DNA of 64,000 nucleotides from Candidatus Campbellbacteria bacterium (GCA_024653945.1 JANLIT010000002.1:11940-75939); one strand, 5' to 3'. Shown: positions 3,171 through 19,015, counted from the stretch's first letter. Notes: generated from the sequence alone by a model not told the origin. A program made the numbers and translations.

Positions 3171-3340
3171 TTCGCTACGTACACGCCGGACCCTGTATGC
3201 AACAGGCTCCGCCTATTAAAAATACAGAAACCACTTGCAAAAAGACAATAAAAATGTACTATGGGTAAGCCCATGTGGGCCTCTTTTTATGAGGACGGGG
3301 CTTCCAACCTCTCACTTCTAACCTCCAACTTCCACTTTAT

Positions 3341-3526: not shown

Positions 3527-3574
3527 TTTTCTTATTTCCAACGTCTAACATCTAACTTCCAACTTCCACTTTAT

Positions 3575-5827: not shown

Positions 5828-5880
5828 AAATCACGTTGAATCATCTCAAACTAAAGACAGAAACAAGAAAAGTTGCATAA

Positions 5881-5910
5881 TAAAAACCCTCGCTTCTGGC
5901 GAGGGTTTTT
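5881..5910. terminator. bidirectional terminator hairpin
   Basis: aaaaaccctcgc-ttct-ggcgagggttttta. Confidence 0.55.
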
Positions 5911-6370
5911 ATTTCTTGTTGTTCTGATTGATAACAGTAAGCCACTTACCCTTATCTTTTTGACATTTTCGTAGTGAAAGTTTTTCGGAAACCTTCCACA
6001 TACCACCATATATCTTTTTTGCAGTTTTGAGTGAATCTTGCAGGTTCCTTTCATCGCTTACAAAAATGCTTCTTTTACGAGGAAAGAACTGCCAAACCGA
6101 TGGGTCTATTGCATATACTACATTCTTTTCTTGTATCGCTAAAATATCGTGAGATTGCTTGGTGTTACACACCCTATTACCTTTCAACACATGTACAACG
6201 GCCTCCGGAAAGGATTTAAGAACAAAACACCCAGCTAATCGGGATAGTTCACTGCAGTTATCCGTAGCTAAACTAGCCAAAGATTGTCTTGTACCTCCAG
6301 ATTTTCTTAAAACTTTTTTGGCAAAGTTCTGTATCTTATCTATGTTCTTTTTTGTGATGCTGTTTTTCAC
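5909..6370 (-). CDS. hypothetical protein (153 aa, basic)
   Basis: ORF in AT-rich native composition, co-directional and 4-nt overlapping with the upstream gene; no recognisable motif. Confidence 0.45.
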   Translation of the reverse strand: MKNSITKKNIDKIQNFAKKVLRKSGGTRQSLASLATDNCSELSRLAGCFVLKSFPEAVVHVLKGNRVCNTKQSHDILAIQEKNVVYAIDPSVWQFFPRKRSIFVSDERNLQDSLKTAKKIYGGMWKVSEKLSLRKCQKDKGKWLTVINQNNKK

Positions 6371-7059
6371 TGGGTGCTTTTAACATATTCAAACAACCAC
6401 GGAATGTATGTGCCCACATCTGATTTCTCTTTCCATGTTGTTAATGCCTGTTTGAGCATCGGACGATGGTGTGGATAGAAAATCATTTTCTTTACGCCGT
6501 GTATAGATGAAAACGGTTGAGTCGAAAGAATCACTGAGTTGAAGATTTCAGACACATCCCATAAAAAAGGACTTTTATACAGTTTCGGAAAATATTTCTT
6601 CACATAATCAAAAAAGAAAAAATGTAGAATTTCGTGCGCAGTGACAAAACGAACACCATCTTGATGTTTCCAAAAAATTTGAAATGACTTCGTTTCCAAA
6701 AAACGAGGGTTGCAGTCTATTATCGACAGAAAAGCGCGATACCCCTTTCGTGGTGTTGGTTTTTTACCAAACATTTTTTCCACAGTAGTAAAATATATGT
6801 TTTCTGTAACAGACCATTCTTTCTTAAAGATAGAAAGTGTTTTGCGCAATTCTTTATTATGTTTTGTGTAAAAAGTATCCACGTACTTAGAAACCACCTC
6901 TTTTCTTTTTTTAAAAGAAAGCTCTTTCACTTTTTTAAGTTGGGGATGTACAGAAATAATACCTGCACCAAAATCAACCCCACCCTCTTCCGCTGATAAA
7001 AAATCGAGGATAATTTCTTTGTCTAGCTTTTTATTTAATTGAAATGATGTCTTTTTCAT
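6367..7059 (-). CDS. hypothetical protein with HExxH motif (putative Zn-metallopeptidase-like)
   Basis: ..VTAHEILHFFFFD..; ATG at 7059 (the track ORF extends to 7152 on an alternative start); overlaps the P-loop gene by 29 nt. Confidence 0.5.
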   Translation of the reverse strand: MKKTSFQLNKKLDKEIILDFLSAEEGGVDFGAGIISVHPQLKKVKELSFKKRKEVVSKYVDTFYTKHNKELRKTLSIFKKEWSVTENIYFTTVEKMFGKKPTPRKGYRAFLSIIDCNPRFLETKSFQIFWKHQDGVRFVTAHEILHFFFFDYVKKYFPKLYKSPFLWDVSEIFNSVILSTQPFSSIHGVKKMIFYPHHRPMLKQALTTWKEKSDVGTYIPWLFEYVKSTQ

Positions 7060-7510
7060 TTTTTGGTGTCCTTCTGGAAAAGACAACTGTTTGAACCTTA
7101 CGATTATCCCAATCGGTCGTCTTGAGTATTTTTTGAAGATGTAGAACCTCATCTCTCATACTCCTCGTTACAATAAAAATTGCGGGAGTTTGTATCTTTT
7201 TTAAGACTCTAAACCATCGAGCAACTTTTTGGAGGTATTTTTTACTGTAGTGGGGTTTTTCCGTTGAGCGTTTCTCCAAAAATTCTTTATCTTGAAAAGT
7301 TTCTACTTCATCAACGATTACTACCCTTCCCTTTGGTGAGGTACGTATCCGGTCACAATCGGGAAAATACGAAACTGCCATTTTTTTACGTTTTAGAAAT
7401 GGTATAAGTTCCTTCAAAACAAAGTATGTTTTCCCGGAATCACTTGTACCAACTAAAAAGACACTCTTCTTTTTCTTGAGTAAGTTATAAATCTTATTTT
7501 TACGGTTCAT
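7031..7510 (-). CDS. small P-loop NTPase
   Basis: Walker A VFLVGTSDSGKTYF, Walker B-like VVIVDEVE; ATG at 7510 preceded by TATAAT only ~6 nt upstream (leaderless-type start). Confidence 0.6.
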   Translation of the reverse strand: MNRKNKIYNLLKKKKSVFLVGTSDSGKTYFVLKELIPFLKRKKMAVSYFPDCDRIRTSPKGRVVIVDEVETFQDKEFLEKRSTEKPHYSKKYLQKVARWFRVLKKIQTPAIFIVTRSMRDEVLHLQKILKTTDWDNRKVQTVVFSRRTPKNEKDIISIK

Positions 7511-7532
7511 AGCTGAATTATATAAAAGAAAT

Positions 7533-7563
7533 ACGGAGAGAGGAACACTTCCCTCTCTCCGTA
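7533..7563 (-). terminator. intrinsic terminator after the rSAM-peptide pair
   Basis: minus-strand acggagagagg-gaagtgtt-cctctctccgt followed by atttctttt. Confidence 0.6.
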
Positions 7564-7575
7564 TGTAGTGCTGGA

Positions 7576-7698
7576 TCACTTCGTCCGGCACGGGATGTTC
7601 TTGGCCATCTTGCAGCCTGCGCCCGCCTTGGAGTGCTTGGAGCTGCAGGGACGCGGCTCGGAAGCCACAGCAATGCGGGTTCTGCGGTACTTACGCAT
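7576..7698 (-). CDS. 40-aa basic Cys-containing peptide MRKYRRTRIAVASEPRPCSSKHSKAGAGCKMAKNIPCRTK (candidate rSAM substrate/precursor)
   Basis: ATG 6 nt after the rSAM stop codon, SD-like GGGGGTGAAAG upstream, 3 Cys, ~62% GC against a ~40% background, followed by a terminator. Not in the ORF track because it is under 60 aa. Confidence 0.4.
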   Translation of the reverse strand: MRKYRRTRIAVASEPRPCSSKHSKAGAGCKMAKNIPCRTK

Positions 7699-7704
7699 GT
7701 TCTT

Positions 7705-9003
7705 TCACCCCCTTTCGTGTGCGTAGAAGTGGATAACGTCGCACTTATGCCTAGACGGTATCCTGTAGTCACCGCCCTCTACGAGAGCTAGGCCAATGCA
7801 ACTGTCGCAGTAATTCCGATTGCGACAGACCATGCACTGCTGCATCTCTCGAAGAGAGAACTGAGTGAGTACCTGTTTTCGTCGTCGGAGAATCTCGGCC
7901 AATGACTCAGAGGAAGTATCCCCCAACGGTACCCTGAGATCGAGACAAGGATAGACAACGCCCCGTGGGTCAATGGCTATTTGATCCCTACCAGCAAAAC
8001 ACACAGTGTGATTTCGACAGTCGCGATACTTCTTCTGGGTAGGAAAACCGCCGATGCGATCCAGAAAAGGCTTAAACTTCTCTTCCATCTCCTGATACGA
8101 AAGACGGAAAAGCACTTCTTTTCCTGGGCCACTACGGTTCGGTGTAATGTATGGACTGTAGAAAATCGACGCTCCGATTTTCGTTAGAACATCGTGGACC
8201 TCATCGATTCGGTCGATGTTGTGTTTTCCAACCAAAACCGAGAGTGTGACGGGTAGTCCGCACCGAAGCATCTGACGGACGCTCTCCTTGAGTCGATCAA
8301 ATCGATATACCGACCTGGTTAACTCTGAGTACCCAGTCCGTGTTTCATACACCGAAACCTGGATGTCGTACAGGTGAAATCGTGACAACTTTTCGACGGT
8401 ACCCAGAGTGAGAGCCGTTCCGTTCGTTTTTAGTTCCAGAACGAAACCAATCTCCTCAAGATCTTCCATCACAGAGATAGCGTCTCTGCGGAGAAAGAGC
8501 TCTCCTCCTGTAAGAAGAACAAAAACCACTCCCGCCGACTTCAATTCTTGTCCCAACTTCTGAATTCTGTCCCTGGACAAGCCCTTCTCATGGAAGTTGT
8601 CCAAATAGCACCAACTACAACGCTGGTTGCAAAGATACGTCAGCTCGAGATTCGCGTTGATAACCTGCCACTCGCGTATTGCGTAAGCAGACAACTCCTC
8701 TAATGCCGTCTTTTGGGTCCGAATCACTTTTTGTGGGAACCTGTACGCCGACTCATCAGACAAGGAACGAATCACTTCTTTGATTTCAGCAAAATCTGTT
8801 GTAATGTCACCACTATCCTCTGGACGAAATTGCTCCAGAAAATCGTTGGTGAGTTGATGCTGTGGTTCGTTGACAATTCTAACTGCCTGACTTGCAAGAG
8901 GACCCTCGAAAAAAGCTGATTTACGGGTCGTCTTATTAATGATGAATGAAGCGCCCCGAAAATCTCGTGAGATAAGGTTTTTCACGGCCACACCCCTTTT
9001 CAA
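7705..9003 (-). CDS. radical SAM enzyme with C-terminal SPASM-type auxiliary cluster domain and ~100-aa N-terminal extension (possible peptide-recognition domain)
   Basis: CNQRCSWCY (CxxxCxxC) about 120 aa in; C-terminal Cys cluster CFAGRD..YPC..CMVCRNRNYCDSC; GC higher than surroundings. Confidence 0.85.
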   Translation of the reverse strand: MKRGVAVKNLISRDFRGASFIINKTTRKSAFFEGPLASQAVRIVNEPQHQLTNDFLEQFRPEDSGDITTDFAEIKEVIRSLSDESAYRFPQKVIRTQKTALEELSAYAIREWQVINANLELTYLCNQRCSWCYLDNFHEKGLSRDRIQKLGQELKSAGVVFVLLTGGELFLRRDAISVMEDLEEIGFVLELKTNGTALTLGTVEKLSRFHLYDIQVSVYETRTGYSELTRSVYRFDRLKESVRQMLRCGLPVTLSVLVGKHNIDRIDEVHDVLTKIGASIFYSPYITPNRSGPGKEVLFRLSYQEMEEKFKPFLDRIGGFPTQKKYRDCRNHTVCFAGRDQIAIDPRGVVYPCLDLRVPLGDTSSESLAEILRRRKQVLTQFSLREMQQCMVCRNRNYCDSCIGLALVEGGDYRIPSRHKCDVIHFYAHERG

Positions 9004-9111
9004 AGAACTGTAGATGTCGCAGAAGTCTCTATCGTTCTGCTGGTGATAATAAAAGCTGCTACGTATTCTGTCAATACCTCCACAAAATCGACTTTAGAAA
9101 AATTTTATCCT

Positions 9112-9139
9112 CTACATTGCTGGGAATTCGACGAAAAAG
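9112..9139 (-). repeat. direct-repeat copy of the histidine-kinase 3' end (encodes FFVEFPAM*), att-like
   Basis: ctacattgctgggaattcgacgaaaaag aligns with 10702-10728 and 11403-11432, including the in-frame stop. Confidence 0.6.
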
Positions 9140-9142
9140 TGT

Positions 9143-10680
9143 TCACTTTTTAAAATATCCATTCTGTATGCTGTATTCTCTTGTTATCCCAAGGTGGCCA
9201 CATAAGTCTTCGTTGTGAGAAACAATCAGAATTGCACCCTTGAAGTTAGCGAGTGCCTCTGTAAATACAGAGATGGTAGAAATGTCCAAATTGTTAGTTG
9301 GTTCATCAAGAACTACACAATCAAAGTCAGCAATGGTTATCATCGCCAGAGAAAGTCGTGCCAACTCCCCACCGGAGAGTGACCCGGCTTTTTTATTTAC
9401 CTCTGGTGTTTCTCTAAAAAGAAATTGAGCCAAGTGTGTACGCAAAAGTTTGTCATCTGTTGTATGTGTAATACGCTGTATATTTTGAAGTACAGTAAGT
9501 TCTCGGGAAACCAAATCATAGTGCTGGTCTAAATACACCACCTTCAAACTTGGCGTTTTTTTGACTATGCCAACAAGTTTTGCAGGGGAGGTGTCGTCAA
9601 AAAGTGCTCTAAGAAGAAGTGTTTTACCAGACCCATTATCTCCCGTAATCCGTACCCTGTCTCCGGTAAACACATCAAAAGAAATATCCGATACCACTGT
9701 TTTATTTGGAAGAACGAGGTTGGCACCATCAACCGATACTACAAATCTTCTACCTATTTTTTTTGAAGGTACATCAAGCCGTACAATGTGTTTTTTAGAG
9801 AGTATGGCATCCTGCAAATCCTCTTCTTTTTCTTCTTTTGCACTCTTTAGTCTCGTGAGGTTCTTTCCTGATTGTTTCTCCGATTGTTCTTTAAAATATC
9901 CCTTTTCGTACGGCGACATATTGTTGTCCAGTTTCTCTTTTTTTCCAACAGATACAGACCTCTGCTTCTTTGTGTGTTCAACAACAAGTGCCAACTTCGC
10001 TTGTTTCACTATTTTTTTCTTTGCCTCAAACTGGCGCGTGGCAGCGGCGCGTTCGTTCTCAATCAATTGTGCATACGTCGTATAGGTACCTTCCGTGGTT
10101 CTAATTTTTTGATGTTCAATGGTCCAAATTTGGTTAGTTGTTGCATTCAAAAAGTCTATATCGTGTGACACGACGACATACGCACCCACAAAAACTTTTA
10201 GATAGGACTTCAGACGAGCAATTCCAGCAGAATCAAGATGATTGGTTGGTTCATCAAGTAATAGAATACCTGGGGCCAACACTCGAGCAAGAGAAAGATA
10301 TACTTTGATGTATTCCCCACCAGATAAGTTACTCATTTTTGAGTCGAAGGGTACTGTTTTTTTGAAAGGGTCAAAAACTCTTTCTCAAAAAGATGTTTTG
10401 AAACCGAGTGTTTGGATAAGAGAGTGGCAAGAGTGGCTTCTTTATCTGCATCTCTTTTTTGAGGAACAATAAATACTTTTCCATTCACTGTGCAAGAACC
10501 TGTGTCTGGCGCAATATCCCCATGTATCATTTTGAGCAATGTCGTTTTTCCTGTTCCGTTATCACCAATAAGACCAACACAATCTCCTGAAAACAGGGTG
10601 AGGTGCGAAATATGCCACAAAAGCTGATCTCTTATTGAGTAGGATGCGTCTTGTATGAGAATAAGAGGGTTCCTGTTCAT
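9143..10680 (-). pseudogene. ABC-F family ATPase (two NBDs, EttA/Uup-like), interrupted by a frameshift in a homopolymer
   Basis: Track ORFs 10333..10680 (Walker A GLIGDNGTGKTT) and 9143..10336 (starts MSNLSGGEY: signature, Walker B LLLDEPTNHLD, then a second NBD with GDNGSGKT, LSGGELARL, VVLDEPTNNLD) meet at a 7-T run (+ strand 10357-10363). Eight would restore one 500+-aa ABC-F reading frame. Confidence 0.7.
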
Positions 10681-10701
10681 ACCCCCATACTACACCGTAC
10701 C

Positions 10702-10728
10702 TACACCCCAGGGAATTCGACGAAAAAT
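10702..10728 (-). repeat. direct-repeat copy of the histidine-kinase 3' end (encodes FFVEFPGV*), att-like
   Basis: ctacaccccagggaattcgacgaaaaa; reverse complement reads TTT TTC GTC GAA TTC CCT GGG GTG TAG. Confidence 0.6.
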
Positions 10729-10761
10729 AAGGTTGGATATCTTTTATGTCATAATGAGTAC

Positions 10762-11406
10762 ATGGAAGAATCAATCAAACTATCTTTTGAATATTCAAAA
10801 TCTCTTGAGAAAGAGAGAGTTATCAATACAATCAAGCGCCTTCCGTGGTATCGGGATAATAGATATAACGTTGATATAATTGCTTTCCCAAAAAATCTCG
10901 ATACGAATAATCTCGTAAGTACTTCTGACGAGGACATTTTAAATGCTATCGATTTAGAATATAACCAAGAAAAACACATCTCCTCTGAAAAAGAAATGAC
11001 AAAACTTTTTAGCTTATACGAAGGTAGATTAGTATCTTTTTTGAAAGAGACTGAGTTGCCTATCATCTCAAATATTATCGTTCATTTGGTTATGTATGGC
11101 ACAGCAGGAAGTTATTCCTTGCCCAATAAGGTAATCGTTAATATTTCAAAGTTTTACAATGTTGGACTAATGAGAAATATACTCCATGAAATCATCCATC
11201 TACACATTCAACATCTGATAGATACATACAAAATTGGCCAGTGGGAAAAAGAACGAGTGGTTGATTTATTGATGGAGAAATGTTTTCCAGAAATAACAAA
11301 ACAACAACATATTCAGATAGATACCACAAAAATTGATGAGGTATTCAATACACACTACCCAAACGTGCCATATATACTAGAAACTATTGGAGAGATATCT
11401 CGCTAA
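10762..11406 (+). CDS. hypothetical protein with HExxH motif
   Basis: NILHEIIHLHIQH; ATG at 10762 (track ORF starts earlier at 10651); convergent with the HK and overlapping its stop. Confidence 0.5.
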   Translation: MEESIKLSFEYSKSLEKERVINTIKRLPWYRDNRYNVDIIAFPKNLDTNNLVSTSDEDILNAIDLEYNQEKHISSEKEMTKLFSLYEGRLVSFLKETELPIISNIIVHLVMYGTAGSYSLPNKVIVNISKFYNVGLMRNILHEIIHLHIQHLIDTYKIGQWEKERVVDLLMEKCFPEITKQQHIQIDTTKIDEVFNTHYPNVPYILETIGEISR

Positions 11407-13181
11407 ACCCCAGGAAATTCAACGAGGAAGGTGGAGCCTTTACCTCGTCCTTTGGACTCGGCCCATATGCGTCCATTGTGTGCAGTAACAATTTGCTTGG
11501 CAATAAAGAGTCCGTAGCCGGTGCTGTGCACATTGGTGATGCGTGAGTCTTTTCCGCGCCCACCCTCGGTGAAGAGCACCGCCTTGTCTTCGTCCGTCAG
11601 CCCCACACCGCTATCTTTAACAGAGAAAATAATCTTACCGTCTTTGTGTGCAAGAGACACGGTCACCGAACCCTCTGGCGTGTAGTTGATGGCGTTATCA
11701 ATAAGATTTTTAAGCACGTGATTGAAAATATAGTCGGCATCTCCTGAAATCGTATATTCATCCCCCTCTGGTATATCCAAAGCAAGTGCTAGTTTCTTGG
11801 TTTCGGCGCGCCTCTTCATGTCCTCAATCCCCTTCATAAGCAATTCCTTCAAACTCAAATTTTGCATTGCATATGTGACTTGCCCCGTCTTAAAGTCAGA
11901 CACATGCAAGAAATTTTTAACCTCAGTAACTCCCTCTTGTGTACGCCTCAATGCTTCTATAGATATCGCCTTAATATCGGGAGCAACGGGACCAAAACTT
12001 TCAGTGGCAATCGCATCAAACCCAGCCGATGCATCAGTAAGGTACCCTTTAACTTCGTGTGTGATGAACCGGAGTGTCTCAAGTTGTCGCACATTCGCAA
12101 ATTCCAAACTCTTTGCAAGTTTCTGTGTCTCCTCACGCAATCGCACTTCCTGTTTCACACTTTTAATAAGGGCTGTTCCGACGGCCGTAACTAGGCCAAG
12201 CGTCGCAATAATCACATATCGAACATTTTCAATTCTTCGAACAAAGAGCATCGCAAATACCAAGACACCAAGGGCTATCACAAGCATTTGCGTCCCAATA
12301 ATACGCGTGTTGAAGGCATGAAACTTCACCATCATGTATGCAAGAAAGGCAATGAAGAGAACCATTCCAATTGGTCCAATTAGGTTCACCTCATACACGG
12401 AAAAAATATCACCAGCAACGTTAGTTGCTGTAAATATGGAAAGGAAGAACACCGACGCTACTGAAAGCATGACAATCTGCTTTTTAAATTCACCTTCTGC
12501 CGTCTTACGGAAATAGTGAATTCCTAGGTAACCAACAAATGCAATTGCAAAGAATTCGAGAGCATAGATGTAATACCAGAGAGGCCCGTTTATACCCTCG
12601 CAATTAATAAGGTCAAAGGCAACCATATTAAAGCGCGAAGGTAACAAAGCAATAACCGGTGCATACAAGAGGAGAAGTACTCCGTTTTGGTTAATATTCA
12701 AACTCGACTTCTTTAAATAAGTCCAAGTAAAATAGACAACTAAAAACACTAGTGTTACCTGGAAAAATGCCGACATTTCCCAACCAAAATGAACAAAATC
12801 TGCTCGAACAGCTATCCACGTCACTACCTCATTTAAAATAAGTGACGCAAACGTTAGAGAAAGCGCGAGTAGTAGTCTTGAGTGTATTTGTTTTGGGTTT
12901 TTAAAAAAGATAAAAAATCCAAAAAAAACTGAAAAAATAGCGATTGGCAAATATGCATAATAAAGGAGCGTGGGTGCAATTGTTGTATCAAACAAACCAA
13001 GGAAGTTTGCTGTCGAATCGAGACAAAGTAACATTTCCATAACAAAATTGTATAATAGATTCATGAAAAAACAAAAGGGGTATTCGTGGATGAATAAGGG
13101 TTTAAAAGTTAAAAATACAAAAAAGTATGGGGGTGGGGTTTTTGCTACTAGAAATATAGCCAAAAACGAGATACTGGCCAT
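11403..13181 (-). CDS. sensor histidine kinase (multi-TM sensor, HisKA + HATPase_c)
   Basis: About 9 N-terminal TM helices, H-box FITHEVKGYL, N/G boxes (LKNLIDNAINYT, DSGVGL, GYGLFIAKQIV), C-terminus ..STFLVEFPGV*. Likely true start is the ATG near 13040 (MEMLL..). Confidence 0.85.
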   Translation of the reverse strand: MASISFLAIFLVAKTPPPYFFVFLTFKPLFIHEYPFCFFMNLLYNFVMEMLLCLDSTANFLGLFDTTIAPTLLYYAYLPIAIFSVFFGFFIFFKNPKQIHSRLLLALSLTFASLILNEVVTWIAVRADFVHFGWEMSAFFQVTLVFLVVYFTWTYLKKSSLNINQNGVLLLLYAPVIALLPSRFNMVAFDLINCEGINGPLWYYIYALEFFAIAFVGYLGIHYFRKTAEGEFKKQIVMLSVASVFFLSIFTATNVAGDIFSVYEVNLIGPIGMVLFIAFLAYMMVKFHAFNTRIIGTQMLVIALGVLVFAMLFVRRIENVRYVIIATLGLVTAVGTALIKSVKQEVRLREETQKLAKSLEFANVRQLETLRFITHEVKGYLTDASAGFDAIATESFGPVAPDIKAISIEALRRTQEGVTEVKNFLHVSDFKTGQVTYAMQNLSLKELLMKGIEDMKRRAETKKLALALDIPEGDEYTISGDADYIFNHVLKNLIDNAINYTPEGSVTVSLAHKDGKIIFSVKDSGVGLTDEDKAVLFTEGGRGKDSRITNVHSTGYGLFIAKQIVTAHNGRIWAESKGRGKGSTFLVEFPGV

Positions 13182-13632
13182 TTTTGGTGGGTTTATAATG
13201 ACACTGAAAGCAGAGCTGGAGCTTCCATCTTCAATCAGAGACCTAGCTCATCAAATACATGATCAATTTGTCATCGGTATAAAAACCCCCAGCGACAAAC
13301 AGTTGGTTGATAATTTTAACCACAGTTGTAGCCCAAATGCTGGTTTTAAGGGACAAATTTTTTTAGTTGCAATGCGTAAAATACGCAAACACGAAGAGGT
13401 GACCTTCGACTATGCCATGGTCTTAAGTAACCCGGTAAATAGTCCACCTTACAAACTTAGTTGCCTTTGTGGTTCAAAAATTTGTCGAAAAGTAATCAGT
13501 GGAGACGATTGGAAAAACCTTAATCTTCAAAAAAAATACGACGGTTACTTCCAATATTATCTGCAAGAAAAGATAAAAAACCCAAAAAAGAAGCTGTATA
13601 TACTTCCTAAGGATTTCTATGACACTAAGTAA
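13063..13632 (+). CDS. SET-domain protein (putative lysine methyltransferase)
   Basis: NFNHSCSPN, FDY, and a post-SET Cys cluster CLCGSKIC; ATG 13063 preceded by TATAAT at 13051-13056 (leaderless-type). Confidence 0.7.
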   Translation: MKKQKGYSWMNKGLKVKNTKKYGGGVFATRNIAKNEILAIFGGFIMTLKAELELPSSIRDLAHQIHDQFVIGIKTPSDKQLVDNFNHSCSPNAGFKGQIFLVAMRKIRKHEEVTFDYAMVLSNPVNSPPYKLSCLCGSKICRKVISGDDWKNLNLQKKYDGYFQYYLQEKIKNPKKKLYILPKDFYDTK

Positions 13633-13796
13633 TGTTTCTACTCCTCTGCCACTTCTTCTATAACTTCAAAGTCTTGTAAAACGACTGTTTTGTAGTAAGT
13701 ATATCCCACTGAAACAACAACGACTAACAAAAAGAGTACCAGTAGTATCTTTGATTTTTTGTCCATATACAGATACTATACTATGCATACCCTAAT

Positions 13797-15188
13797 ATGC
13801 GAATACTGTTTGTCTCAAAGGACACTATGGCCGGAAACCTTGCTTTCCTCTTAAAAAAAGAGGGGCATAGCGTACGACTTTTCGTTGAAGAACCAGACGG
13901 CAAAAGAAACTTCAACGGCCTCGTCTCCCATACAGATGATTGGAAAAAAGATCTCACATGGGTTGGAAAAGATGATGGGTTAATCATATTTGACGACATA
14001 GGATTCGGAAAAATACAAGACAAACTAAGAAAGGACGGGTATACCGTTTTTGGTGGGTCATACGAAGGTGAGAAACTCGAAATAAATCGATACATCGGAC
14101 AAGAGATTTTTAGACACCACGGAATAAAAACGATGCCCCTTCTTGATTTCCACCACATTGATGATGCGGTGGCTTTTTTAAAAGAAAATCGAGGTATGTG
14201 GGTTCTCAAACAAAATGGTCCTGAGCGTGAATTTAATTACGTCGGGCAATTTGAAGACGCAAGCGATACGATTAGTGTCTTGGAGAATTACAAAAAAGCA
14301 AACGGTAGTTATTCTCAAGGAACCATTTCGCTTCACCAAAGAGTCGTCGGTATTGAGATGGGGGCTGCTCGATATTTCAATGGTAAGAACTGGGTGGGAC
14401 CAACTGAAATTAGTCTGGAACACAAGCGTCTCTTCCCTGGGGACGTCGGACCAACCACGTCAGAAATGGGAACCCTTGCATGGTACGACGACAATGAAAA
14501 CAACAAATTATTTAAAGAGACCCTTGCGAAACTAAAACCCTTTCTACAAAAAGCAGACTTCCGGGGTGACTTCAGTATCAATTGTATTGTGAATGAAGAG
14601 GGTGCGTTCCCCACAGAGGCAACCGCACGTTTTGGTTGCCCGATAGTACACCTCCAGACAGAATTCCAGGAATCGCCGTGGGGAGAGTTCTTATACGCAG
14701 TGGCGAGCGGTAAACCATACAACCTCAAATGGAAAAAAGGGTACGGCCTCGTTGCGATAGTGGCTGTCCCACCTTTCCCGTACCATTTCAAAAATCATCC
14801 AATCACAAGCCGTGGTATGGATGTTTTTTTTAATGATATGACAGAGGAAGATTTTACACACATACACTTTGAGGAAATTTCAAAAAGAGACGACAAGGAG
14901 GGCGGTGGGTACTACATCTCTGATGACAGGGGGTACGCCCTGTATGTGACCGCTATGGGTGAAACCGTGCTTGAAACCCAACGATTACTTCATAAACGAA
15001 TCAAAAAAATACACATTCCTAAAATGTTTTATAGAAATGACATTGGAAGTAGTTTTATGAAATCTGACGCAAAAAAGCTGAAGGAGTGGGGATACCTCAA
15101 CGGTGTTTCAAACAAACCTCAAATACGTAAATCTCACGTGCTCGTGCACACAAAAAGAAAGCAGCACCCCTCACGGAATGCTGCCTGA
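13797..15188 (+). CDS. ATP-grasp family enzyme (PurD-like fold), function uncertain
   Basis: 463 aa; N-terminal Rossmann-like MRILFVSKD..GH.V, central ATP-grasp-like region; no unambiguous PurD signatures. Confidence 0.5.
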   Translation: MRILFVSKDTMAGNLAFLLKKEGHSVRLFVEEPDGKRNFNGLVSHTDDWKKDLTWVGKDDGLIIFDDIGFGKIQDKLRKDGYTVFGGSYEGEKLEINRYIGQEIFRHHGIKTMPLLDFHHIDDAVAFLKENRGMWVLKQNGPEREFNYVGQFEDASDTISVLENYKKANGSYSQGTISLHQRVVGIEMGAARYFNGKNWVGPTEISLEHKRLFPGDVGPTTSEMGTLAWYDDNENNKLFKETLAKLKPFLQKADFRGDFSINCIVNEEGAFPTEATARFGCPIVHLQTEFQESPWGEFLYAVASGKPYNLKWKKGYGLVAIVAVPPFPYHFKNHPITSRGMDVFFNDMTEEDFTHIHFEEISKRDDKEGGGYYISDDRGYALYVTAMGETVLETQRLLHKRIKKIHIPKMFYRNDIGSSFMKSDAKKLKEWGYLNGVSNKPQIRKSHVLVHTKRKQHPSRNAA

Positions 15189-15210
15189 GAATGTCTCCTT
15201 GACGTGCCCT

Positions 15211-15747
15211 TTAGAACATCGAGGAGACGGACTTGATGATCCACTCACCAGCCTCGAGGCCAGTGAAGACTGCGAGCGTCCACCACGTATTGGCGATGAC
15301 GAACGAGACGAGGAAGATTCTCCAGTCCCGAGCCGTCATGCCGTTGTACTGGTGTGCCCCACGGCGCATGTACACGGTGCAGATGAACGGGTCAAACTTC
15401 ACCGAGAGGATCAGCATGACCATCCAGTCGCCGCGGCGCATCGCCCACTGCATCACCTTGTGAAAGAACTTCTCCTTCTCATCGGCATCGCGAACCTCTT
15501 TGAGCGTCTCGATGCCCAACCAGTCGGTACGCGACCAGTCGTAGAAACGAATGGTTGCGTAGCAAACCGCGAGAGACAGAACCCACATGATGGCCGCGCC
15601 GACGAGCGTACCAAAGTACAACATGACGGCCGGGTAGAGCAGGTAGTCAAACCCCTGCACCATCAGGAAGTTGGCAGTAAGGCCAACTCCCAGAATGCCC
15701 AGACGCTCTTTCCATGTCTTGGGCTGCTGAGTATTGGACATTACCAA
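15211..15747 (-). CDS. GC-rich integral membrane protein, unknown function
   Basis: 178 aa, 4-5 TM segments, SD AAGGGAGG before the ATG, ~58% GC. Confidence 0.5.
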   Translation of the reverse strand: MVMSNTQQPKTWKERLGILGVGLTANFLMVQGFDYLLYPAVMLYFGTLVGAAIMWVLSLAVCYATIRFYDWSRTDWLGIETLKEVRDADEKEKFFHKVMQWAMRRGDWMVMLILSVKFDPFICTVYMRRGAHQYNGMTARDWRIFLVSFVIANTWWTLAVFTGLEAGEWIIKSVSSMF

Positions 15748-15850
15748 CCTCCCTTTCGGATCACAACATGAGGTTCATCCCCATGTTTTCTGTTGTCTAT
15801 TATAGCATAAAGAAGTGTGTTGTCAAGACACTCCACAGGTCCTGCCCGAG

Positions 15851-15942
15851 CAGCTAAAAAGCCCTTATTTAAAAGGATTTTCTATCCCCTATAGACTAAA
15901 TTATCTGGGTCAATTGAAATCGTGTCTGTTGTGCGTTTGACC
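15851..15942 (-). repeat. ~90-bp direct repeat, copy 1 (3' end of the M16 peptidase gene plus downstream hairpin)
   Basis: ~85% identical to 18310-18397; encodes ..TDTISIDPDNLVYRG* and the downstream cagctaaaaagccc. Confidence 0.65.
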
Positions 15943-17162
15943 ACCACAACTGCTGGAAACGATGCAAAAATTGTCTTCGCGGCATCTTGGATATCTTTTT
16001 TAGTTACCTTAGCGTAACGAGATTCTATATCAAGAAATTCTTCTGGGTGCTCGGCGTGAAGTGCAAACCACGAAAGAGATTCTGTCCGTTCCTGTGCCCT
16101 TTCATTTTTTACATAATAATTAAAGATACTTCTTTCTCTCGCTGGTTCAAGTTCCCCATCAGTACACTCCTCTGTGCACATACGTAATACCTCACGGCAC
16201 ACAATATCAAAGAGTTCGGGTAATAATTCTGGTGTAGTCCCTGAACTAATTCCAAACTTTCCACACTCAGAGTCAGATGACACAGAAGCTGACGTATCAT
16301 ATGAAAGACCTTTTTCATGTCGAACTGCTTTAAAAAGACGTGATGTCTTACCACCACCAAGAATAGTTGCAAGCATATCAACCGCAGGTTTTGTTTCATC
16401 AAAAAACGTTGGTGCGCGGTAGGAGATAAGTACTCGGTTTTGATCGGCCTGAGAATCGTCAATAAAAGAAAGACTTGGTGAGCGTATATCGCTAAATTGA
16501 AATAAGGTGGGAGAGATACTTGTATTTTTTTCTTCGTCCCAAAAAAATATTTCTTCAACAAGTTTTACAATACTTTCAAAATCCATATCGGCGACAACAC
16601 TCAAAACCGCATTGTGCGGAAGATATCTTTTGGTCCAGAAATCAATCGCATCTTTATGTTGTACATTCATCACCTCTTCGGGAGTCCCAAGAACTCTTCG
16701 TGCAAAAGGTGTTCCAGAAAAAAGAAGTGACTGTGCTTTGTCATATGACAAGGAAGAAGATTGTGATTCGTGTCTTTTTGCTTCTTGAAATACAACCTTC
16801 TGTTCGCGTATAAAATCTTCTTCTCGTAGGAGTGGTTGAAACGTTGCTTCAAAAACATATTTTAAAGCAGAATCCAGAGTATGGCTTGGCACAAGAGCCC
16901 AGTACCAAACATCTTCATACCAGGTCTTTCCACCTCCTCGACCACCACATTCAGAGACAAGATTTTCTAATTCGTTTTTTGTAGGATAGTTTTTTGTTCC
17001 ATCCAACACGAGGTGCTCAAGAAAATGAGCAACTCCGGGCTTTTCTCCGTACACGGCGCCCGCCTTCAAACGTATCGAAACGGCACTGATAGTGCTCCCC
17101 GCCCTTCGTTCGTGGATGAGTTTCATGCCATTTTTAAGCCGTTTTGTGGTGATATTTTGCAT
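15882..17162 (-). CDS. M16-family (pitrilysin-like) zinc peptidase
   Basis: inverted zinc motif HFLEHLVLDGT (HxxEH) about 45 aa in; 426 aa. Confidence 0.85.
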   Translation of the reverse strand: MQNITTKRLKNGMKLIHERRAGSTISAVSIRLKAGAVYGEKPGVAHFLEHLVLDGTKNYPTKNELENLVSECGGRGGGKTWYEDVWYWALVPSHTLDSALKYVFEATFQPLLREEDFIREQKVVFQEAKRHESQSSSLSYDKAQSLLFSGTPFARRVLGTPEEVMNVQHKDAIDFWTKRYLPHNAVLSVVADMDFESIVKLVEEIFFWDEEKNTSISPTLFQFSDIRSPSLSFIDDSQADQNRVLISYRAPTFFDETKPAVDMLATILGGGKTSRLFKAVRHEKGLSYDTSASVSSDSECGKFGISSGTTPELLPELFDIVCREVLRMCTEECTDGELEPARERSIFNYYVKNERAQERTESLSWFALHAEHPEEFLDIESRYAKVTKKDIQDAAKTIFASFPAVVVVKRTTDTISIDPDNLVYRG

Positions 17163-17380
17163 ATACGTGGATTATACCCCAAAAAAATATAAAAAAGAAA
17201 ATGGTGGTGTTTGGTGGTGTTTACCAATTACCACCATTGATCAAAAAATGTTTTCTCACCATCTAGGAATGAGTTTCTCAGGATGGTAAGTGGTCCAAAA
17301 CAGAGGACACCCACCTGCGCAGACGTTAAATTTTTCATACTCAACACGCCTCTGTGCCCGTCTGACAAATAAATAAGGAA

Positions 17381-17440
17381 GGCTACAGTTGGGACAGAAA
17401 ACCCAATCTTTGGGTATCTTTGTAGCCTTCCTTTTAATTC
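17381..17440 (-). terminator. intrinsic terminator after 17434..17967
   Basis: 13-bp stem aaggaaggctaca...tgtagccttcctt followed by a T-rich run on the minus strand. Confidence 0.55.
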
Positions 17441-17967
17441 GCCTTACGGAAATCCTTGATGATTTTGTCTGCACCGTCTCGGTCGATGATGTCCCACGCA
17501 CGTTTATAGTTCTCGTTTGTAGTGTTCCGTGCCACCTTCAACTGCCCACCGGACAGAATAAGCGACAGAATTGCATATGTCATCACGTGGTTGCGTACCT
17601 TTTGGCTTTCATTAGGAAACGGCAACGGCGCGTGTTCCGAACCAGACATCAATCGATGGGTGAGTTCATGGCACAGGGCAACAATGAACTCTTCTTCCGT
17701 GTATCGACTTTTGAGAACCAACGGACGCGAATGGTCTCGTATAGTCCCTGAAAGAACATAGCACTCAATGTGTGGCTCGAATGTGAGTCCTGTGATTTGC
17801 TCCATGTGAGCCATGAGTGCCGAACCAATCTGAGCCCAAATGCGCTCATAGTTGTCCCTGCGGGATTCCAGTTCCTCCTTTGACGGCGGCGTCCAAGTCG
17901 GATAGGCCTCAATTGCCTCCGCTTCGTGGAGACGATTGAGTTCCTCACTTGTGTGAAAGGTAATCAT
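17434..17967 (-). CDS. GC-rich hypothetical protein with HExxH motif (ALCHELTHRL)
   Basis: ATG at 17967 with SD GGAGAA 5 nt upstream (the track's TTG start is 17979). Confidence 0.5.
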   Translation of the reverse strand: MITFHTSEELNRLHEAEAIEAYPTWTPPSKEELESRRDNYERIWAQIGSALMAHMEQITGLTFEPHIECYVLSGTIRDHSRPLVLKSRYTEEEFIVALCHELTHRLMSGSEHAPLPFPNESQKVRNHVMTYAILSLILSGGQLKVARNTTNENYKRAWDIIDRDGADKIIKDFRKAN

Positions 17968-18038
17968 GGTGTTCTCCAATTAAAGATGCCCCCCGCGTAC
18001 TTATCAGGGGGGCAAGTGGTTCGGTAGAGACTTCAGTC

Positions 18039-18146
18039 GCTGGCAGGGAAGCTGTCCTCGCTGTAGTCGTCCTCCTCCGCGTCCATCAACGGACCGAACA
18101 TGGCCGTATCCTCGGTCGTGTCCCGCTCGTCGGGGTCGGGCATGTG
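18039..18146 (-). CDS. possible 35-aa acidic peptide MPDPDERDTTEDTAMFGPLMDAEEDDYSEDSFPASD
   Basis: SD GGAGGTGAGAACAGGTG before the ATG; ~62% GC patch; under the ORF-track length cutoff. Confidence 0.25.
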
Positions 18147-18309
18147 ATTGGGCACCTGTTCTCACCTCCTTTAGTGGGCTGGTTGCCAGTACTATCTACC
18201 TACAAAGATACAGAAGACACGAATAAAAGTCAAGTGCGAAGGGGCACCCCGTTCCAAGCACAAGGGCTTGCCGGGATTAAGTCAAGCAACTTAAGGACTC
18301 CACCAGAAC

Positions 18310-18397
18310 AGCTAAAAAGCCCCCTACGTAGGGGCTTTTCTAGCCCCTATAGACCAATTTGTCTGGGTCAATTGAAATAGTATCCGTTGGGCGTTTA
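18310..18397 (-). repeat. ~90-bp direct repeat, copy 2 (orphan copy of the M16 peptidase 3' end: encodes TDTISIDPDKLVYRG* out of context, plus the hairpin aagcccctacgtaggggctt)
   Basis: alignment with 15851-15942 read directly; lies immediately 3' of the LOG-like gene. Confidence 0.65.
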
Positions 18398-19015
18398 ACC
18401 CCTGAGTTCGCCTTCTTCGCCTGGGCGGTAGCTTGTGGTCATCCGGTCTGCCAATTTGTCCTGCTTCACCAGCTCAATCACTTTTGCCACAAGTTTTTTG
18501 GGGTTCGTGTCAAAAATAACTCGTTCGTGTGAACGATTGCTTCGCTCCAGAATAATTTTCATGGTTTCGTCTGTCGTCCATTCCCCTTCCAAGATACCAA
18601 TCGGCTTATTGTCTTCAAAGGCAATCGTAAATTCATGAATGGTTCCAATGCGTCCGCACCCAAAGAGTACGGCGTCTGATGAGCGTGTAAGAATAAGATC
18701 GCGTCCTGAATAGCCGAAACCTGTGTACACAATCATGTCCATGTAGTCCAACGGCAGGCGAAATGCTTCAACGTGCTCACGTTCAGACGCTGCCGGAGAA
18801 AAACCAATTGATTTGCCACCTGCTTCTTTTGCTCCAATGGCCGCCCACAGAGGAAAACCTGTCGTGGCACCCGTTACAAGAACCGCGCCATTTGCTGCGA
18901 TTTCGTGTCCAAGCTCTTTAGCAACTTCATATGCACGTGAACCACACGAAGCGGTCTCAGCAGCACCTGATACACAAATTTTTATATCGTGTTCTGTTCT
19001 TTTTCGCAAAGACAT
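18395..19015 (-). CDS. LOG/TIGR00725-like Rossmann-fold nucleotide-binding protein
   Basis: ICVSGAAE..GAVLVTGATTG..GFSPAASE..GFGYSG..LFGCGRIGTIHE pattern. Confidence 0.55.
   Translation of the reverse strand: MSLRKRTEHDIKICVSGAAETASCGSRAYEVAKELGHEIAANGAVLVTGATTGFPLWAAIGAKEAGGKSIGFSPAASEREHVEAFRLPLDYMDMIVYTGFGYSGRDLILTRSSDAVLFGCGRIGTIHEFTIAFEDNKPIGILEGEWTTDETMKIILERSNRSHERVIFDTNPKKLVAKVIELVKQDKLADRMTTSYRPGEEGELRG

What the first reader, a model, noticed from the sequence alone, without database searches (positions are those of the whole stretch)
6367..17967. Three small HExxH-motif proteins, each in a cassette or border position
6367..7059 (HEILH), 10762..11406 (HEIIH) and 17434..17967 (HELTH) are ~180-230-aa proteins whose only recognisable feature is a HExxH. 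One is in the rSAM locus, one is an HK-3'-repeat cassette, and one lies inside the M16 repeat-flanked module. They may be a family of minimal metallopeptidases or immunity/anti-toxin-like proteins associated with mobile cassettes. The second peptidase could serve as a leader peptidase for the rSAM product.
Basis: inference. Interest (0 to 1): 0.5.

Follow-up and report, generated by a model that had tools for sequence, protein, structure and literature searches.

The report
Three related small zincin-fold proteins
Three small proteins with the HExxH metal-binding motif are distant relatives sharing a metalloprotease-type fold. In related bacteria, two of their families sit beside radical-SAM enzymes and cysteine-rich peptide genes, which points to a role in maturing modified peptides, but in this genome those partners are missing or reduced to a remnant.

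Summary

Comparative genomics gives the function lead. The ORF2 family lies next to one radical-SAM/SPASM subfamily plus a Cys/Asp-rich precursor peptide (13 and 10 of 31 loci). The ORF1 family lies next to another rSAM/SPASM maturase plus a CxC-rich precursor (38 of 83 loci). ORF3 orthologues always follow a conserved 36-39-aa acidic peptide gene. The most likely role is peptide-processing (leader-removing) metalloenzymes of RiPP cassettes. An aKG-HExxH-type oxygenase role is the main rival.

In this window ORF1 and ORF2 are orphans. ORF2's partner rSAM survives only as a 29-codon remnant (17259-17345) beside ORF3. Immunity or antitoxin roles and phage carriage are not supported.

The parts
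6367..7059 (-). ORF1, 230 aa. Zincin-fold protein with HEILH at residues 142-146, invariant Glu171 and Tyr195-Pro196, and a CNPRF motif at 116-120.
10762..11406 (+). ORF2, 214 aa. Zincin-fold protein with HEIIH at 142-146 and invariant W161, K163 and E164.
17434..17967 (-). ORF3, 177 aa. HELTH at 100-104, with nearly invariant His127 downstream. It belongs to the large family that bridges ORF1 and ORF2.
   Evidence: Translation. 545 cluster representatives at E<=1e-3. Alignment A4. hhalign 97% to the ORF1 family and 94% to the ORF2 family.
18033..18143 (-). Conserved 36-aa acidic peptide gene directly upstream of ORF3 (MPDPDERDTTEDTAMFGPLMDAEEDDYSEDSFPASD), preceded by AAAGGAGGTGA.
   Evidence: Found by comparison with L125 and L040, where a 36-39-aa homologue also directly precedes the ORF3 orthologue.
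17256..17345 (-). Remnant: the last 29 codons plus stop of the rSAM/SPASM gene that normally partners ORF2-family genes.
   Evidence: tblastn with the L009 rSAM gives 61% identity over 23 aa, E 3.5e-6. Reading VEYEKFNVCAGGCPLFWTTYHPEKLIPRW* against L005 ...CEKFNICAGGCPLYWTLYHPEELIPGW.
7705..9003 (-). rSAM/SPASM protein of the window, 432 aa. It is not the usual partner of either the ORF1 or the ORF2 family.
   Evidence: Pfam Radical_SAM plus SPASM. Only cluster-motif similarity to the L009 type. 24% identity at best among ORF1-family loci. 90% identical in the close relative L004.
7031..7591 (-). 186-aa P-loop protein between the rSAM and ORF1. It recurs in a complete ORF1-type cassette.
   Evidence: Walker A/B motifs visible in the translation. 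84% identical in L004. 45% identical in L112, next to precursor, ORF1 homologue, rSAM and ABC exporter.
5909..6370 (-). 153-aa protein of unknown function downstream of ORF1. It is split into two ORFs in L004.
4013..5827 (-). ABC exporter (transmembrane domain plus nucleotide-binding domain) ending the co-directional block. Absent from relative L004.
   Evidence: Pfam ABC_membrane plus ABC_tran. L004/window DNA comparison. Homologues occur in 8 ORF1-family loci.
15882..17162 (-). M16 (insulinase-type, HxxEH) peptidase in the same repeat-flanked module as ORF3.
   Evidence: Pfam Peptidase_M16 plus M16_C. HFLEH motif.
15845..15942 (.). Left copy of a ~100-nt direct repeat (3' end of M16 plus a terminator-like element).
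   Evidence: the repeat finder D1 and D16. Alignment.
18303..18400 (.). Right copy of the direct repeat (3' end of the SLOG gene plus a terminator hairpin at 18321-18334).
11403..13181 (-). Histidine kinase convergent with ORF2. This is conserved synteny, not a cassette.
   Evidence: Pfam HATPase_c. Same arrangement in L005. HK family present in 5 of 31 ORF2-family loci.

Best explanation
The three genes encode remote paralogues of one zincin-fold (gluzincin-like) protein superfamily. Its named members are almost all Patescibacteria, and no curated library describes it. They are small and have no visible signal peptide.

Shown:
- They are homologous.
- ORF1 and ORF2 have a metalloprotease-type fold. 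HExxH lies on the active-site helix and an invariant Glu lies on the following helix. ORF3 has a His at the equivalent place.
- In relatives, ORF1-family genes are the third member of cassettes made of a Cys-rich precursor and an rSAM/SPASM thioether-type maturase.
- ORF2-family genes are the third member of a different cassette: rSAM/SPASM, then a Cys/Asp-rich precursor, then the HExxH gene.
- ORF3 orthologues are always preceded by a small acidic peptide gene.

Inferred:
- Each protein binds a divalent metal and processes the peptide encoded next to it. The most likely reaction is cutting the leader from the rSAM-modified core, because these minimal cassettes contain no other protease.
- In this window, rearrangements have stripped ORF1 and ORF2 of their usual partners. 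The ORF2 partner rSAM survives only as a 29-codon remnant next to ORF3, and ORF1 now sits with a different rSAM/SPASM, a P-loop protein and an ABC exporter, without a recognisable precursor. They are therefore either orphans acting in trans or rewired to other substrates. Only ORF3 keeps its peptide partner.
For: Homology:
- hhalign ORF3-family profile against ORF1 family: 96.6%, E 5.8e-10.
- With enlarged alignments: ORF1-ORF3 97.2% (E 4.4e-11), ORF2-ORF3 94.3% (E 1e-7), ORF1-ORF2 61%.
- The ORF3-family HMM hits ORF1-family proteins directly at E 1e-5 to 1e-7.
- One protein (L101 1561-2334) hits both the ORF2 and ORF3 profiles.

Fold:
- AF2 pLDDT is 95.3 and 94.9, with the same order of secondary-structure elements and HExxH at 142-146 in both models.
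- Catalytic set is invariant: H142/E143/H146/E171/Y195 in ORF1 and H142/E143/H146/E164 in ORF2.

ORF2-family context (31 loci):
- An orthologous rSAM/SPASM (27-75% identity in tblastn) occurs in 13 of 31 loci. It lies directly upstream on the same strand in nine of them.
- A ~50-aa peptide with an MxxLxxLxxVTGI leader and a ...DDCxNPDDCDCDC core lies between the rSAM and the HExxH gene in 10 loci.

ORF1-family context (83 loci):
- A FibroRumin/PapB/SCIFF-like rSAM maturase occurs in 33 of 83 loci, in three different gene arrangements.
- A CxCTxCxSCRCTPCK-type precursor occurs in 30 loci. One or both occur in 38 loci, and in 20 of the 38 loci of 5 kb or more.
- rSAM-to-HExxH gaps are 26-59 nt in the co-directional cases.
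- Linked and orphan members interleave in clustering, so the link is ancestral.

Family co-location:
- ORF1-family genes lie next to ORF2-family genes in 5-9 of 31 loci.

ORF3:
- The acidic peptide gene is conserved in the window, L125/L126 and L040.

Window rearrangement:
- The rSAM remnant.
- Synteny with L005/L006 and L004.
Against: - No biochemical activity can be shown here.
- About half of ORF1- and ORF2-family members, including those of this window, have no adjacent rSAM or precursor. The proteins may therefore have a function independent of RiPP cassettes.
- A strong hairpin, visible by eye in the printed sequences, often separates the precursor from the ORF2-family gene. Many ORF1-family genes are convergent with the rSAM. 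Co-transcription is therefore not general.
- Known HExxH proteins associated with rSAM enzymes include non-hydrolytic Fe/aKG hydroxylases (PMC12636437, PMC13060819).
- ORF3 has no structural model. Its third ligand appears to be His, not Glu.
- The distant ORF3-family member P0090 sits in a different operon: ADC-like, then an ICMT-like methyltransferase.
Confidence: 0.5

Rival explanations
1. They are stand-alone relatives of the aKG-HExxH enzymes: Fe(II)/alpha-ketoglutarate-dependent oxygenases with a zincin-like fold. On this reading they tailor the rSAM-modified peptide, for example by beta-hydroxylating the many Asp residues of the Cys/Asp-rich cores, rather than cutting it.
For: - aKG-HExxH enzymes are typically fused or adjacent to rSAM enzymes in RiPP clusters, and were formerly annotated as metallopeptidases (PMC12636437, PMC13060819).
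- TIGR04267 (aKG-HExxH hydroxylase) is the only NCBIfam model hit repeatedly by ORF3-family members: 8 of 89, best E 0.03.
- The precursor cores are Asp-rich.
Against: - No TIGR04267 hit at E<=1 for any of the three window proteins or for any ORF1- or ORF2-family member.
- No sequence match to 8s5f in PDB profile searches at E<=10.
- The proteins are 180-230 aa, whereas the ChlH domain is 342 aa.
- The HExxH plus downstream Glu (and Tyr195 in ORF1) is the classical gluzincin hydrolytic set.
- From general knowledge, not tested here: Patescibacteria are mostly anaerobic fermenters, which fits poorly with O2- and aKG-dependent chemistry.
Confidence: 0.17
2. They are general-purpose small cytoplasmic metallopeptidases or peptide-binding proteins of Patescibacteria. 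Frequent adjacency to rSAM/precursor genes would then be inherited synteny or a shared genomic hot spot, not a shared pathway.
For: - Half of the loci lack rSAM and precursor.
- Orphan members keep all catalytic residues.
- Some homologues lie among housekeeping genes, for example P0022 between an EPSP_synthase-domain gene and GrpE.
- The families co-locate with one another and with further HExxH genes in tandem arrays, as gene-family hot spots do.
Against: - The rSAM is by far the most frequent neighbour: 16 of 31 and 37 of 80 loci by clustering, against at most 10 for any other real gene family.
- Adjacency survives three different gene orders and 31-73% rSAM divergence.
- Two different HExxH families pair with two different rSAM-plus-precursor families.
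Confidence: 0.18
3. They are immunity, antitoxin or toxin-type proteins carried on mobile cassettes or phages. ORF3 plus its small acidic partner would then form a two-gene toxin-antitoxin-like or phage module.
For: - ORF3 lies in a module flanked by ~100-nt direct repeats.
- ORF3 is preceded by a small acidic protein gene, as in type II modules.
- Its orthologues in L125, L126 and L040 follow an 88-aa gene and an SLT-like lysozyme gene; the L125 88-aa product reads as membrane-spanning, holin-like. L040 also carries NinG and many small ORFs.
- The ORF1 locus shows gene-content flux on both sides relative to L004.
- A VirD4/TraG-like gene lies at 22277-25057.
Against: - No relatives of any of the three families were found in 2.9 million IMG/VR contigs.
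- No BFVD structural match.
- ORF2 is in conserved synteny with the histidine kinase.
- No tRNA was found in window 1-26000. No integrase turned up among the annotated genes, although no dedicated integrase search was run.
- ORF1 and ORF2 have no small partner gene in the window.
Confidence: 0.1
4. The HExxH motifs are chance occurrences in unrelated proteins.
For: Pairwise BLASTP among the three finds nothing. The first shallow profile comparisons gave 2-6% probability.
Against: Motif invariance in each family. Deep profile-profile matches. Zincin fold of both models.
Confidence: 0.01

Closest known systems
Gluzincin metallopeptidases (clan MA(E): M1 aminopeptidases such as ERAP1 and LTA4H, and thermolysin M4)
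   Different: About 9-13% identity. No sequence-level match. Stand-alone 180-230-aa proteins without the flanking domains of M1. They carry a distinctive N-terminal strand plus helical bundle. ORF3 has His rather than Glu at the third-ligand position.
Minimal zincins: Wss1/WLM, SprT/Spartan and YbeY
   Different: All matches are below the gathering score. Those families act on DNA-protein crosslinks or rRNA and have no link to rSAM or peptide genes.
aKG-HExxH peptide beta-hydroxylases (IPR026337 / TIGR04267; ChlH, BpmH, PflC/PosC, PesO)
   Same: Zincin-like fold, HExxH, and residence in RiPP clusters beside or fused to rSAM enzymes. PflC can also hydrolyse peptides (PMC12636437).
   Different: No significant sequence match for ORF1 or ORF2, and only weak hits for 8 of 89 ORF3-family members. 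Smaller proteins. The hosts are probably anaerobic. The Glu third ligand is typical of hydrolases.
Dedicated RiPP leader peptidases of rSAM/thioether systems (M16 AlbE/AlbF-type, TldD/E, PqqF/G)
   Same: Zinc-dependent enzymes encoded in rSAM RiPP clusters that remove leaders. An M16 gene sits beside ORF3 and the rSAM remnant in the window.
   Different: Different folds and families. The proteins here are much smaller and belong to no described peptidase family.
Sactipeptide, ranthipeptide and SCIFF-type rSAM/SPASM systems (PapB, SCIFF maturase, FibroRumin system)
   Same: The partner rSAM of the ORF1 family scores best against TIGR04136 FibroRumin (E 3.4e-84), PapB and SCIFF maturases. The precursors are short and Cys-rich.
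   Different: Scores are below every family cut-off (283 against 400 bits). The precursor families (CxCTxCxSCRCTPCK and DDCxNPDDCDCDC) and the obligatory HExxH partner were not found in the literature searches run here.

Membership tests
Zincin / gluzincin fold (clan MA) | HExxH motif conserved and located on a long alpha-helix | tested here: met
   Invariant in A1 and A2. In A4, E and the second H are invariant and the first H is at least 90% conserved. Residues 142-146 lie inside helices 135-156 (ORF1) and 133-156 (ORF2). ORF3 has no model.
Zincin / gluzincin fold (clan MA) | Third metal ligand (Glu) on the following helix, about 18-25 residues after the second His | tested here: met
   ORF1 E171 is invariant and lies in helix 166-178. 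ORF2 E164 is invariant and lies in helix 160-174. For ORF3 the equivalent conserved residue is His127 (alignment), so ORF3 is better described as zincin with a His third ligand. 3-D proximity of the ligands was not measured.
Zincin / gluzincin fold (clan MA) | Overall structural similarity to solved zincin catalytic domains | tested here: met
Zincin / gluzincin fold (clan MA) | Zinc binding and peptide-bond hydrolysis | not testable with these tools
   Needs metal analysis and an enzyme assay.
aKG-HExxH peptide beta-hydroxylase (TIGR04267 / IPR026337) | Match to the family model at or above its cut-off | tested here: not met
   No hit at E<=1 for the three proteins or for any ORF1- or ORF2-family member. 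8 of 89 ORF3-family members hit weakly, best E 0.03.
aKG-HExxH peptide beta-hydroxylase (TIGR04267 / IPR026337) | Closer structural similarity to ChlH (8s5f) than to hydrolytic zincins | tested here: not met
aKG-HExxH peptide beta-hydroxylase (TIGR04267 / IPR026337) | Genomic association with rSAM enzymes and RiPP precursors | tested here: met
   Met for the ORF1 and ORF2 families in relatives. Not met by their usual partners in the window itself.
aKG-HExxH peptide beta-hydroxylase (TIGR04267 / IPR026337) | Fe(II), aKG and O2 dependence, with aKG-binding residues | not testable with these tools
   The ligand and aKG-binding residues of ChlH were not available in the papers held. Needs an assay.
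Pfam zincin families (DUF6782, SprT-like, Peptidase_M78, DUF3267, WLM) | Score at or above the gathering threshold | tested here: not met
   Best scores are 15-18 bits against cut-offs of 22-27. The hits are confined to the region around HExxH.
RiPP leader peptidase (functional class) | Encoded in a cassette with a precursor peptide and its maturase | tested here: met
   ORF2 family: 13 of 31 loci with the rSAM and 10 with the precursor. ORF1 family: 38 of 83 loci with rSAM and/or precursor. In the window itself this is not met: no precursor was found and the partner rSAM is reduced to a remnant.
RiPP leader peptidase (functional class) | Cleaves at the leader-core junction of the cognate precursor | not testable with these tools
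   Needs co-expression and mass spectrometry.
Mobile cassette / phage-borne immunity or toxin-antitoxin protein | Flanking repeats or integration signatures, presence on viral or mobile contigs, small partner gene | tested here: inconclusive
   ORF3: direct repeats, a small acidic upstream gene and a phage-like relative contig. ORF1 and ORF2: none of these. No IMG/VR relatives for any family. No tRNA nearby.

The most novel reading that the evidence does not exclude
The three proteins sample an undescribed superfamily of stand-alone zincin-fold enzymes whose named members are almost all Patescibacteria. These enzymes would be obligatory third components of at least two new rSAM/SPASM RiPP cassette types: a CxC-rich core CxCTxCxSCRCTPCK and a Cys/Asp-rich core DDCxNPDDCDCDC. 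They would be either the long-missing dedicated leader peptidases of thioether (sacti/ranthi-type) peptides, or an anaerobic, non-canonical branch of the HExxH tailoring enzymes. The ORF3 branch would process a different, acidic peptide.
Probability: 0.3. Interest if true: 0.75.

Novelty: new variant of a known kind. Interest (0 to 1): 0.55.

Why it matters
Candidate-phyla-radiation (Patescibacteria) bacteria have tiny genomes and are thought to have little secondary metabolism.

The comparative results point to two compact three-gene peptide-maturation cassettes that recur in these bacteria: precursor, rSAM/SPASM and small zincin. They also give a first functional handle on three sizeable families of hypothetical proteins: at least 409 metagenomic relatives for ORF1 and 545 cluster representatives for ORF3.

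If the zincins are leader peptidases, they would fill a gap for thioether-type rSAM peptides, where the protease is often unknown. If they are oxygenase-like, they would extend the recently discovered aKG-HExxH chemistry to small stand-alone proteins.

For this window itself the result is more modest. The genes are orphaned family members in a rearranged region.

Tried and rejected
- Pairwise BLASTP among the three proteins: nothing.
- Shallow profile-profile comparison (A1, A2, A3): 2-6% probability. It succeeded only after the ORF3 family was enlarged with the exhaustive HMM search.
- Pfam and NCBIfam on the three proteins and on every family member: no family at threshold.
- PDB sequence-profile searches: only noise.
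- Idea that the window's own rSAM (7705-9003) is the usual partner of ORF1 or ORF2: rejected.
- Search for either precursor type in the window with HMMs, and inspection of all ORFs of 20 aa or more in 5800-10800: none found.
- Idea that the window's 153-aa protein matches the transglutaminase-core gene of L004: rejected, no alignment. It corresponds instead to the split 71-aa plus 52-aa ORFs of L004.
- Phage or mobile origin: IMG/VR scans with A1, A2 and A3 were negative. BFVD Foldseek was negative.
- Metagenome scans for ORF3: A4, A5 and A6 gave no usable pattern, and A3 found nothing.
- A Cys-window scan of the six-frame translation was too noisy to use.
- The exact series of inversions relating the window to L005/L006 was not resolved.

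Full report
**1. Observation**

The window comes from a Candidatus Campbellbacteria (Patescibacteria) MAG contig of 238,534 bp. ORF2 and ORF3 are identical to the database proteins NUW02_00545 and NUW02_00580.

The three ORFs are present as described: 6367-7059(-) with HEILH, 10762-11406(+) with HEIIH, and 17434-17967(-) with HELTH.

The window has 7 HExxH in ORFs of 100 aa or more, against 0.85 expected from composition. More importantly, HExxH is invariant in 46 ORF1-family and 35 ORF2-family sequences. In 89 ORF3-family sequences E and the second H are invariant and the first H is at least 90% conserved.

**2. Not in any curated family**

None of the three proteins, and no member of their families, reaches a Pfam or NCBIfam threshold. 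Only sub-threshold hits occur around the motif:
- ORF3 family: SprT-like 20 of 89, Peptidase_M78 15 of 89, DUF6782 12 of 89, TIGR04267 8 of 89.
- ORF1 family: DUF3267 6 of 46.
- ORF2 family: nothing consistent.

PDB sequence-profile searches gave only noise.

Where sources name the homologues, they come from Patescibacteria: WWE3, Taylorbacteria, Vogelbacteria, Campbellbacteria, Staskawiczbacteria and Paceibacterota. There is one Nanoarchaeota and one 'Gammaproteobacteria' MAG record.

**3. Are the three related?**

Pairwise BLASTP finds nothing, and shallow profiles give 2-6% probability.

An exhaustive HMM search with the ORF3 profile found 545 cluster representatives at E<=1e-3. With an 89-sequence alignment of these:
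- hhalign links the ORF3 family to the ORF1 family at 96.6% (E 5.8e-10, 113 columns).
- It links the ORF3 family to the ORF2 family at 55%.

After enlarging the ORF1 and ORF2 alignments with sequences from fetched loci, the values become:
- ORF1-ORF3: 97.2% (E 4.4e-11).
- ORF2-ORF3: 94.3% (E 1e-7, 143 columns from the N-terminal strand to the helix after HExxH).
- ORF1-ORF2: 61%.

Two further results support this. The ORF3-family HMM also hits ORF1-family proteins directly (E 1e-5 to 1e-7 in a set of 1,317 ORFs). One protein, L101 1561-2334, hits both the ORF2 and ORF3 profiles. The three are therefore remote members of one superfamily, bridged by the ORF3 family.

**4. Fold**

AlphaFold2 models built from the family alignments are confident: ORF1 pLDDT 95.3 and pTM 0.91, ORF2 pLDDT 94.9 and pTM 0.91.

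Both show the same element order:
- an N-terminal strand,
- a helical bundle,
- two or three strands (about residues 104-129),
- a long helix carrying HExxH at residues 142-146 in both,
- a second helix carrying the invariant Glu (E171 in ORF1, E164 in ORF2),
- two C-terminal helices.

ORF1 also has an invariant Tyr195-Pro196 and a CNPRF motif on the strand region.

In ORF3 the conserved residue at the place of the Glu ligand is His127.

**5. Genomic context of the ORF2 family**

The sample is 31 distinct loci, drawn from GTDB genomes and look-ups.
- The commonest neighbour by far is one rSAM/SPASM subfamily. It is found in 13 loci by tblastn at 1e-15 and in 16 by clustering.
- It lies directly upstream on the same strand in nine loci and downstream in L024. 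Its orthologues in L005 and L009 are 49% identical.
- Between the rSAM and the HExxH gene lies a conserved ~50-aa ORF. It has a leader MxxLxxLxxVTGI... and a Cys/Asp-rich core, for example ...GDCDCSPDSDDCSNPDDCDCDCGA. By eye, a strong hairpin follows it in several loci. An HMM of this ORF detects it in 10 loci, with a divergent copy in L024.

This is the anatomy of an rSAM RiPP cassette. Its only further conserved gene is the zincin.

**6. Genomic context of the ORF1 family**

A metagenome scan found 409 relatives, of which 80 loci were fetched.
- A ~455-aa rSAM/SPASM maturase is adjacent in 33 of 83 loci. Its best matches are TIGR04136 FibroRumin (E 3.4e-84, below cut-off), PapB and the SCIFF maturase.
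- It occurs in three arrangements: rSAM then zincin with gaps of 26-59 nt, zincin convergent with rSAM, and zincin then rSAM. rSAM divergence spans 31-73% identity.
- A Cys-rich precursor is found in 30 loci. Its leader is ..vVP...d..i.GKI.d and its core is CxCTxCxSCRCTPCK or a variant. It lies either upstream of the rSAM or directly upstream of the zincin.
- Either partner is present in 38 of 83 loci, and in 20 of the 38 loci of 5 kb or more.
- Linked and orphan members interleave in identity clustering. The window's ORF1 falls in a cluster rich in linked members.

**7. The families co-locate with one another**

- ORF1-family genes lie next to ORF2-family genes in L029, L016, L018, L027 and L030. 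Weaker ORF1-like paralogues occur in L038, L025 and L007.
- A further HExxH family (HELSH...WLNEG) sits in tandem in L018, L022 and L028.
- ORF2- or ORF3-family genes occur in several ORF1 loci: L065, L071, L101, L083 and L073.

**8. ORF3**

Close orthologues are rare: 5 in the word-indexed search.

In the window, in L125/L126 and in L040, the gene is directly preceded by a conserved 36-39-aa acidic peptide gene. The window copy is at 18033-18143(-): MPDPDERDTTEDTAMFGPLMDAEEDDYSEDSFPASD, with a good ribosome-binding site.

In the relatives this pair follows an 88-aa gene and an SLT-type lysozyme-like gene; the L125 88-aa product reads as membrane-spanning. L040 is a 43-kb contig of many small ORFs that includes NinG.

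A distant family member, P0090, sits in a different operon: small ORF, zincin, ADC-like, ICMT-like methyltransferase. It lies near an MvdD-type ATP-grasp gene.

**9. What the window itself contains**

Neither usual partner rSAM and neither precursor type is present.

ORF1 lies in a co-directional block on the minus strand, in this order:
- rSAM/SPASM (7705-9003), a different subfamily;
- a P-loop protein (7031-7591);
- ORF1;
- a 153-aa protein (5909-6370);
- an ABC exporter (4013-5827).

The P-loop protein, ORF1 and an ABC exporter recur together with a precursor and the usual rSAM in L112.

The close relative L004 (ORF1 83% identical; rSAM 90% identical) lacks the exporter. It carries two extra genes between the P-loop gene and ORF1. 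ORF1 is therefore bordered by variable insertion points.

ORF2 keeps its ancestral neighbour, the convergent histidine kinase. In relatives L005/L006 the order is infC-rpmI-rplT, then rSAM, precursor, ORF2, then HK or NDK.

In the window, the rSAM and precursor have been replaced upstream of ORF2. The last 29 codons of that rSAM survive at 17259-17345(-), between the ORF3 stop and the M16 start.

The segment M16, remnant, ORF3, peptide is flanked by ~100-nt direct repeats (15845-15942 and 18303-18400). These include the 3' ends of the M16 and SLOG genes and a terminator hairpin.

**10. Interpretation**

Shown:
- homology of the three proteins;
- zincin fold of ORF1 and ORF2;
- a conserved catalytic-type residue set;
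- strong and repeated genomic linkage of the ORF1 and ORF2 families to rSAM/SPASM maturases and Cys-rich precursors;
- the peptide partner of ORF3;
- loss of the partners in the window.

Inferred: the proteins are metal-dependent peptide-processing enzymes, most simply the leader peptidases of these minimal cassettes.

The main rival comes from recent literature. aKG-HExxH enzymes have a zincin-like fold, are often fused to rSAM enzymes, and hydroxylate Asp, His, Gln or Pro in RiPPs. One of them also hydrolyses peptides (PMC12636437, PMC13060819). In the tests available here:
- membership of that family is not met by sequence for ORF1 and ORF2, and is only hinted at for ORF3;
- ChlH is not their closest structural match;
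- the function cannot be excluded without an assay.

A housekeeping role with inherited synteny remains possible, because half of the family members are orphans. Immunity or antitoxin roles and phage carriage lack support except, weakly, for ORF3.

**11. Verdict**

The RiPP link is right in kind, but it involves partners that this genome has lost.

The proteins are new, uncurated branches of a known fold in a known type of gene cluster, so I rate them a new variant of a known kind. Interest is moderate (0.55). It is higher for the comparative discovery of the two cassette types than for the orphaned genes of this window.

Noticed in passing
window 17256-17345 (-): A 29-codon remnant of an rSAM/SPASM gene (C-terminal end plus stop) lies between ORF3 and the M16 gene. 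Its intact orthologue in relatives lies directly upstream of ORF2-family genes.
   Followed up: yes
window 18033-18143 (-): Small gene, missed by ordinary ORF listing because it is only 36 aa, for a conserved 36-aa acidic peptide with a strong ribosome-binding site, directly upstream of ORF3. Homologues occur in L125, L126 and L040.
   Followed up: yes
window 3086-3185 and 21426-21525: 100-nt inverted repeat (82% complementary) containing an identical 24-nt palindromic hairpin (GAAAACCGCCTGCTGGCGGTTTTC). It brackets the whole 18-kb segment that holds all three HExxH genes. Gene order relative to L005/L006 is inverted or rearranged across this segment.
   Followed up: partly
window 9143-10680 (-): An ABC-F-type ATPase is split into two overlapping ORFs (10333-10680 and 9143-10336), which suggests a frameshift or pseudogene. 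The gene is bracketed by a 27-nt direct repeat (9112-9138 and 10701-10727, 85% identical).
   Followed up: no
window 3302-3344 and 3536-3578: A 43-nt direct repeat (91% identical) ends at the start codons of the 61-aa ORF at 3341-3526 (probably rpmI, by synteny with L005) and of rplT. It may be a shared leader or operator element.
   Followed up: no
window 22277-25057 (-): A 926-aa VirD4/TraG-like type IV coupling protein lies just beyond the region, hinting at a conjugative or integrated element nearby.
   Followed up: no
L018 3563-4192; also L022 and L028: A further small HExxH family (HELSH ... WLNEG, M1-like motif pair) is encoded in tandem with ORF1- and ORF2-family genes. Patescibacteria thus carry arrays of different small zincin genes.
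   Followed up: partly
L101 1561-2334: This protein hits both the ORF2-family profile (E 4e-21) and the ORF3-family profile (E 1.5e-8). It is an intermediate linking the two families.
   Followed up: partly
L121-L124 (about 9900-11700 in L121); L007 5439-7204: DUF6624 genes recur near these zincins. They flank the ORF2 homologue in L007. In L121 one follows an MvdD-type ATP-grasp gene and a 45-aa ORF (a graspetide-like pair) near an ORF3-family gene.
   Followed up: no
L040 (43-kb contig carrying the ORF3 orthologue P0088): The contig looks phage-like: dozens of small same-strand ORFs, NinG, DUF2828 and Band_7. An 88-aa gene plus an SLT lysozyme-like gene lie upstream of the peptide-ORF3 pair, and the same pair of genes occurs in L125/L126.
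   Followed up: partly
window 13797-15188 (+): A 463-aa ATP-grasp protein with only weak GARS_A and GARS_C matches. It is conserved next to the histidine kinase in relative L005. Function unclear.
   Followed up: no
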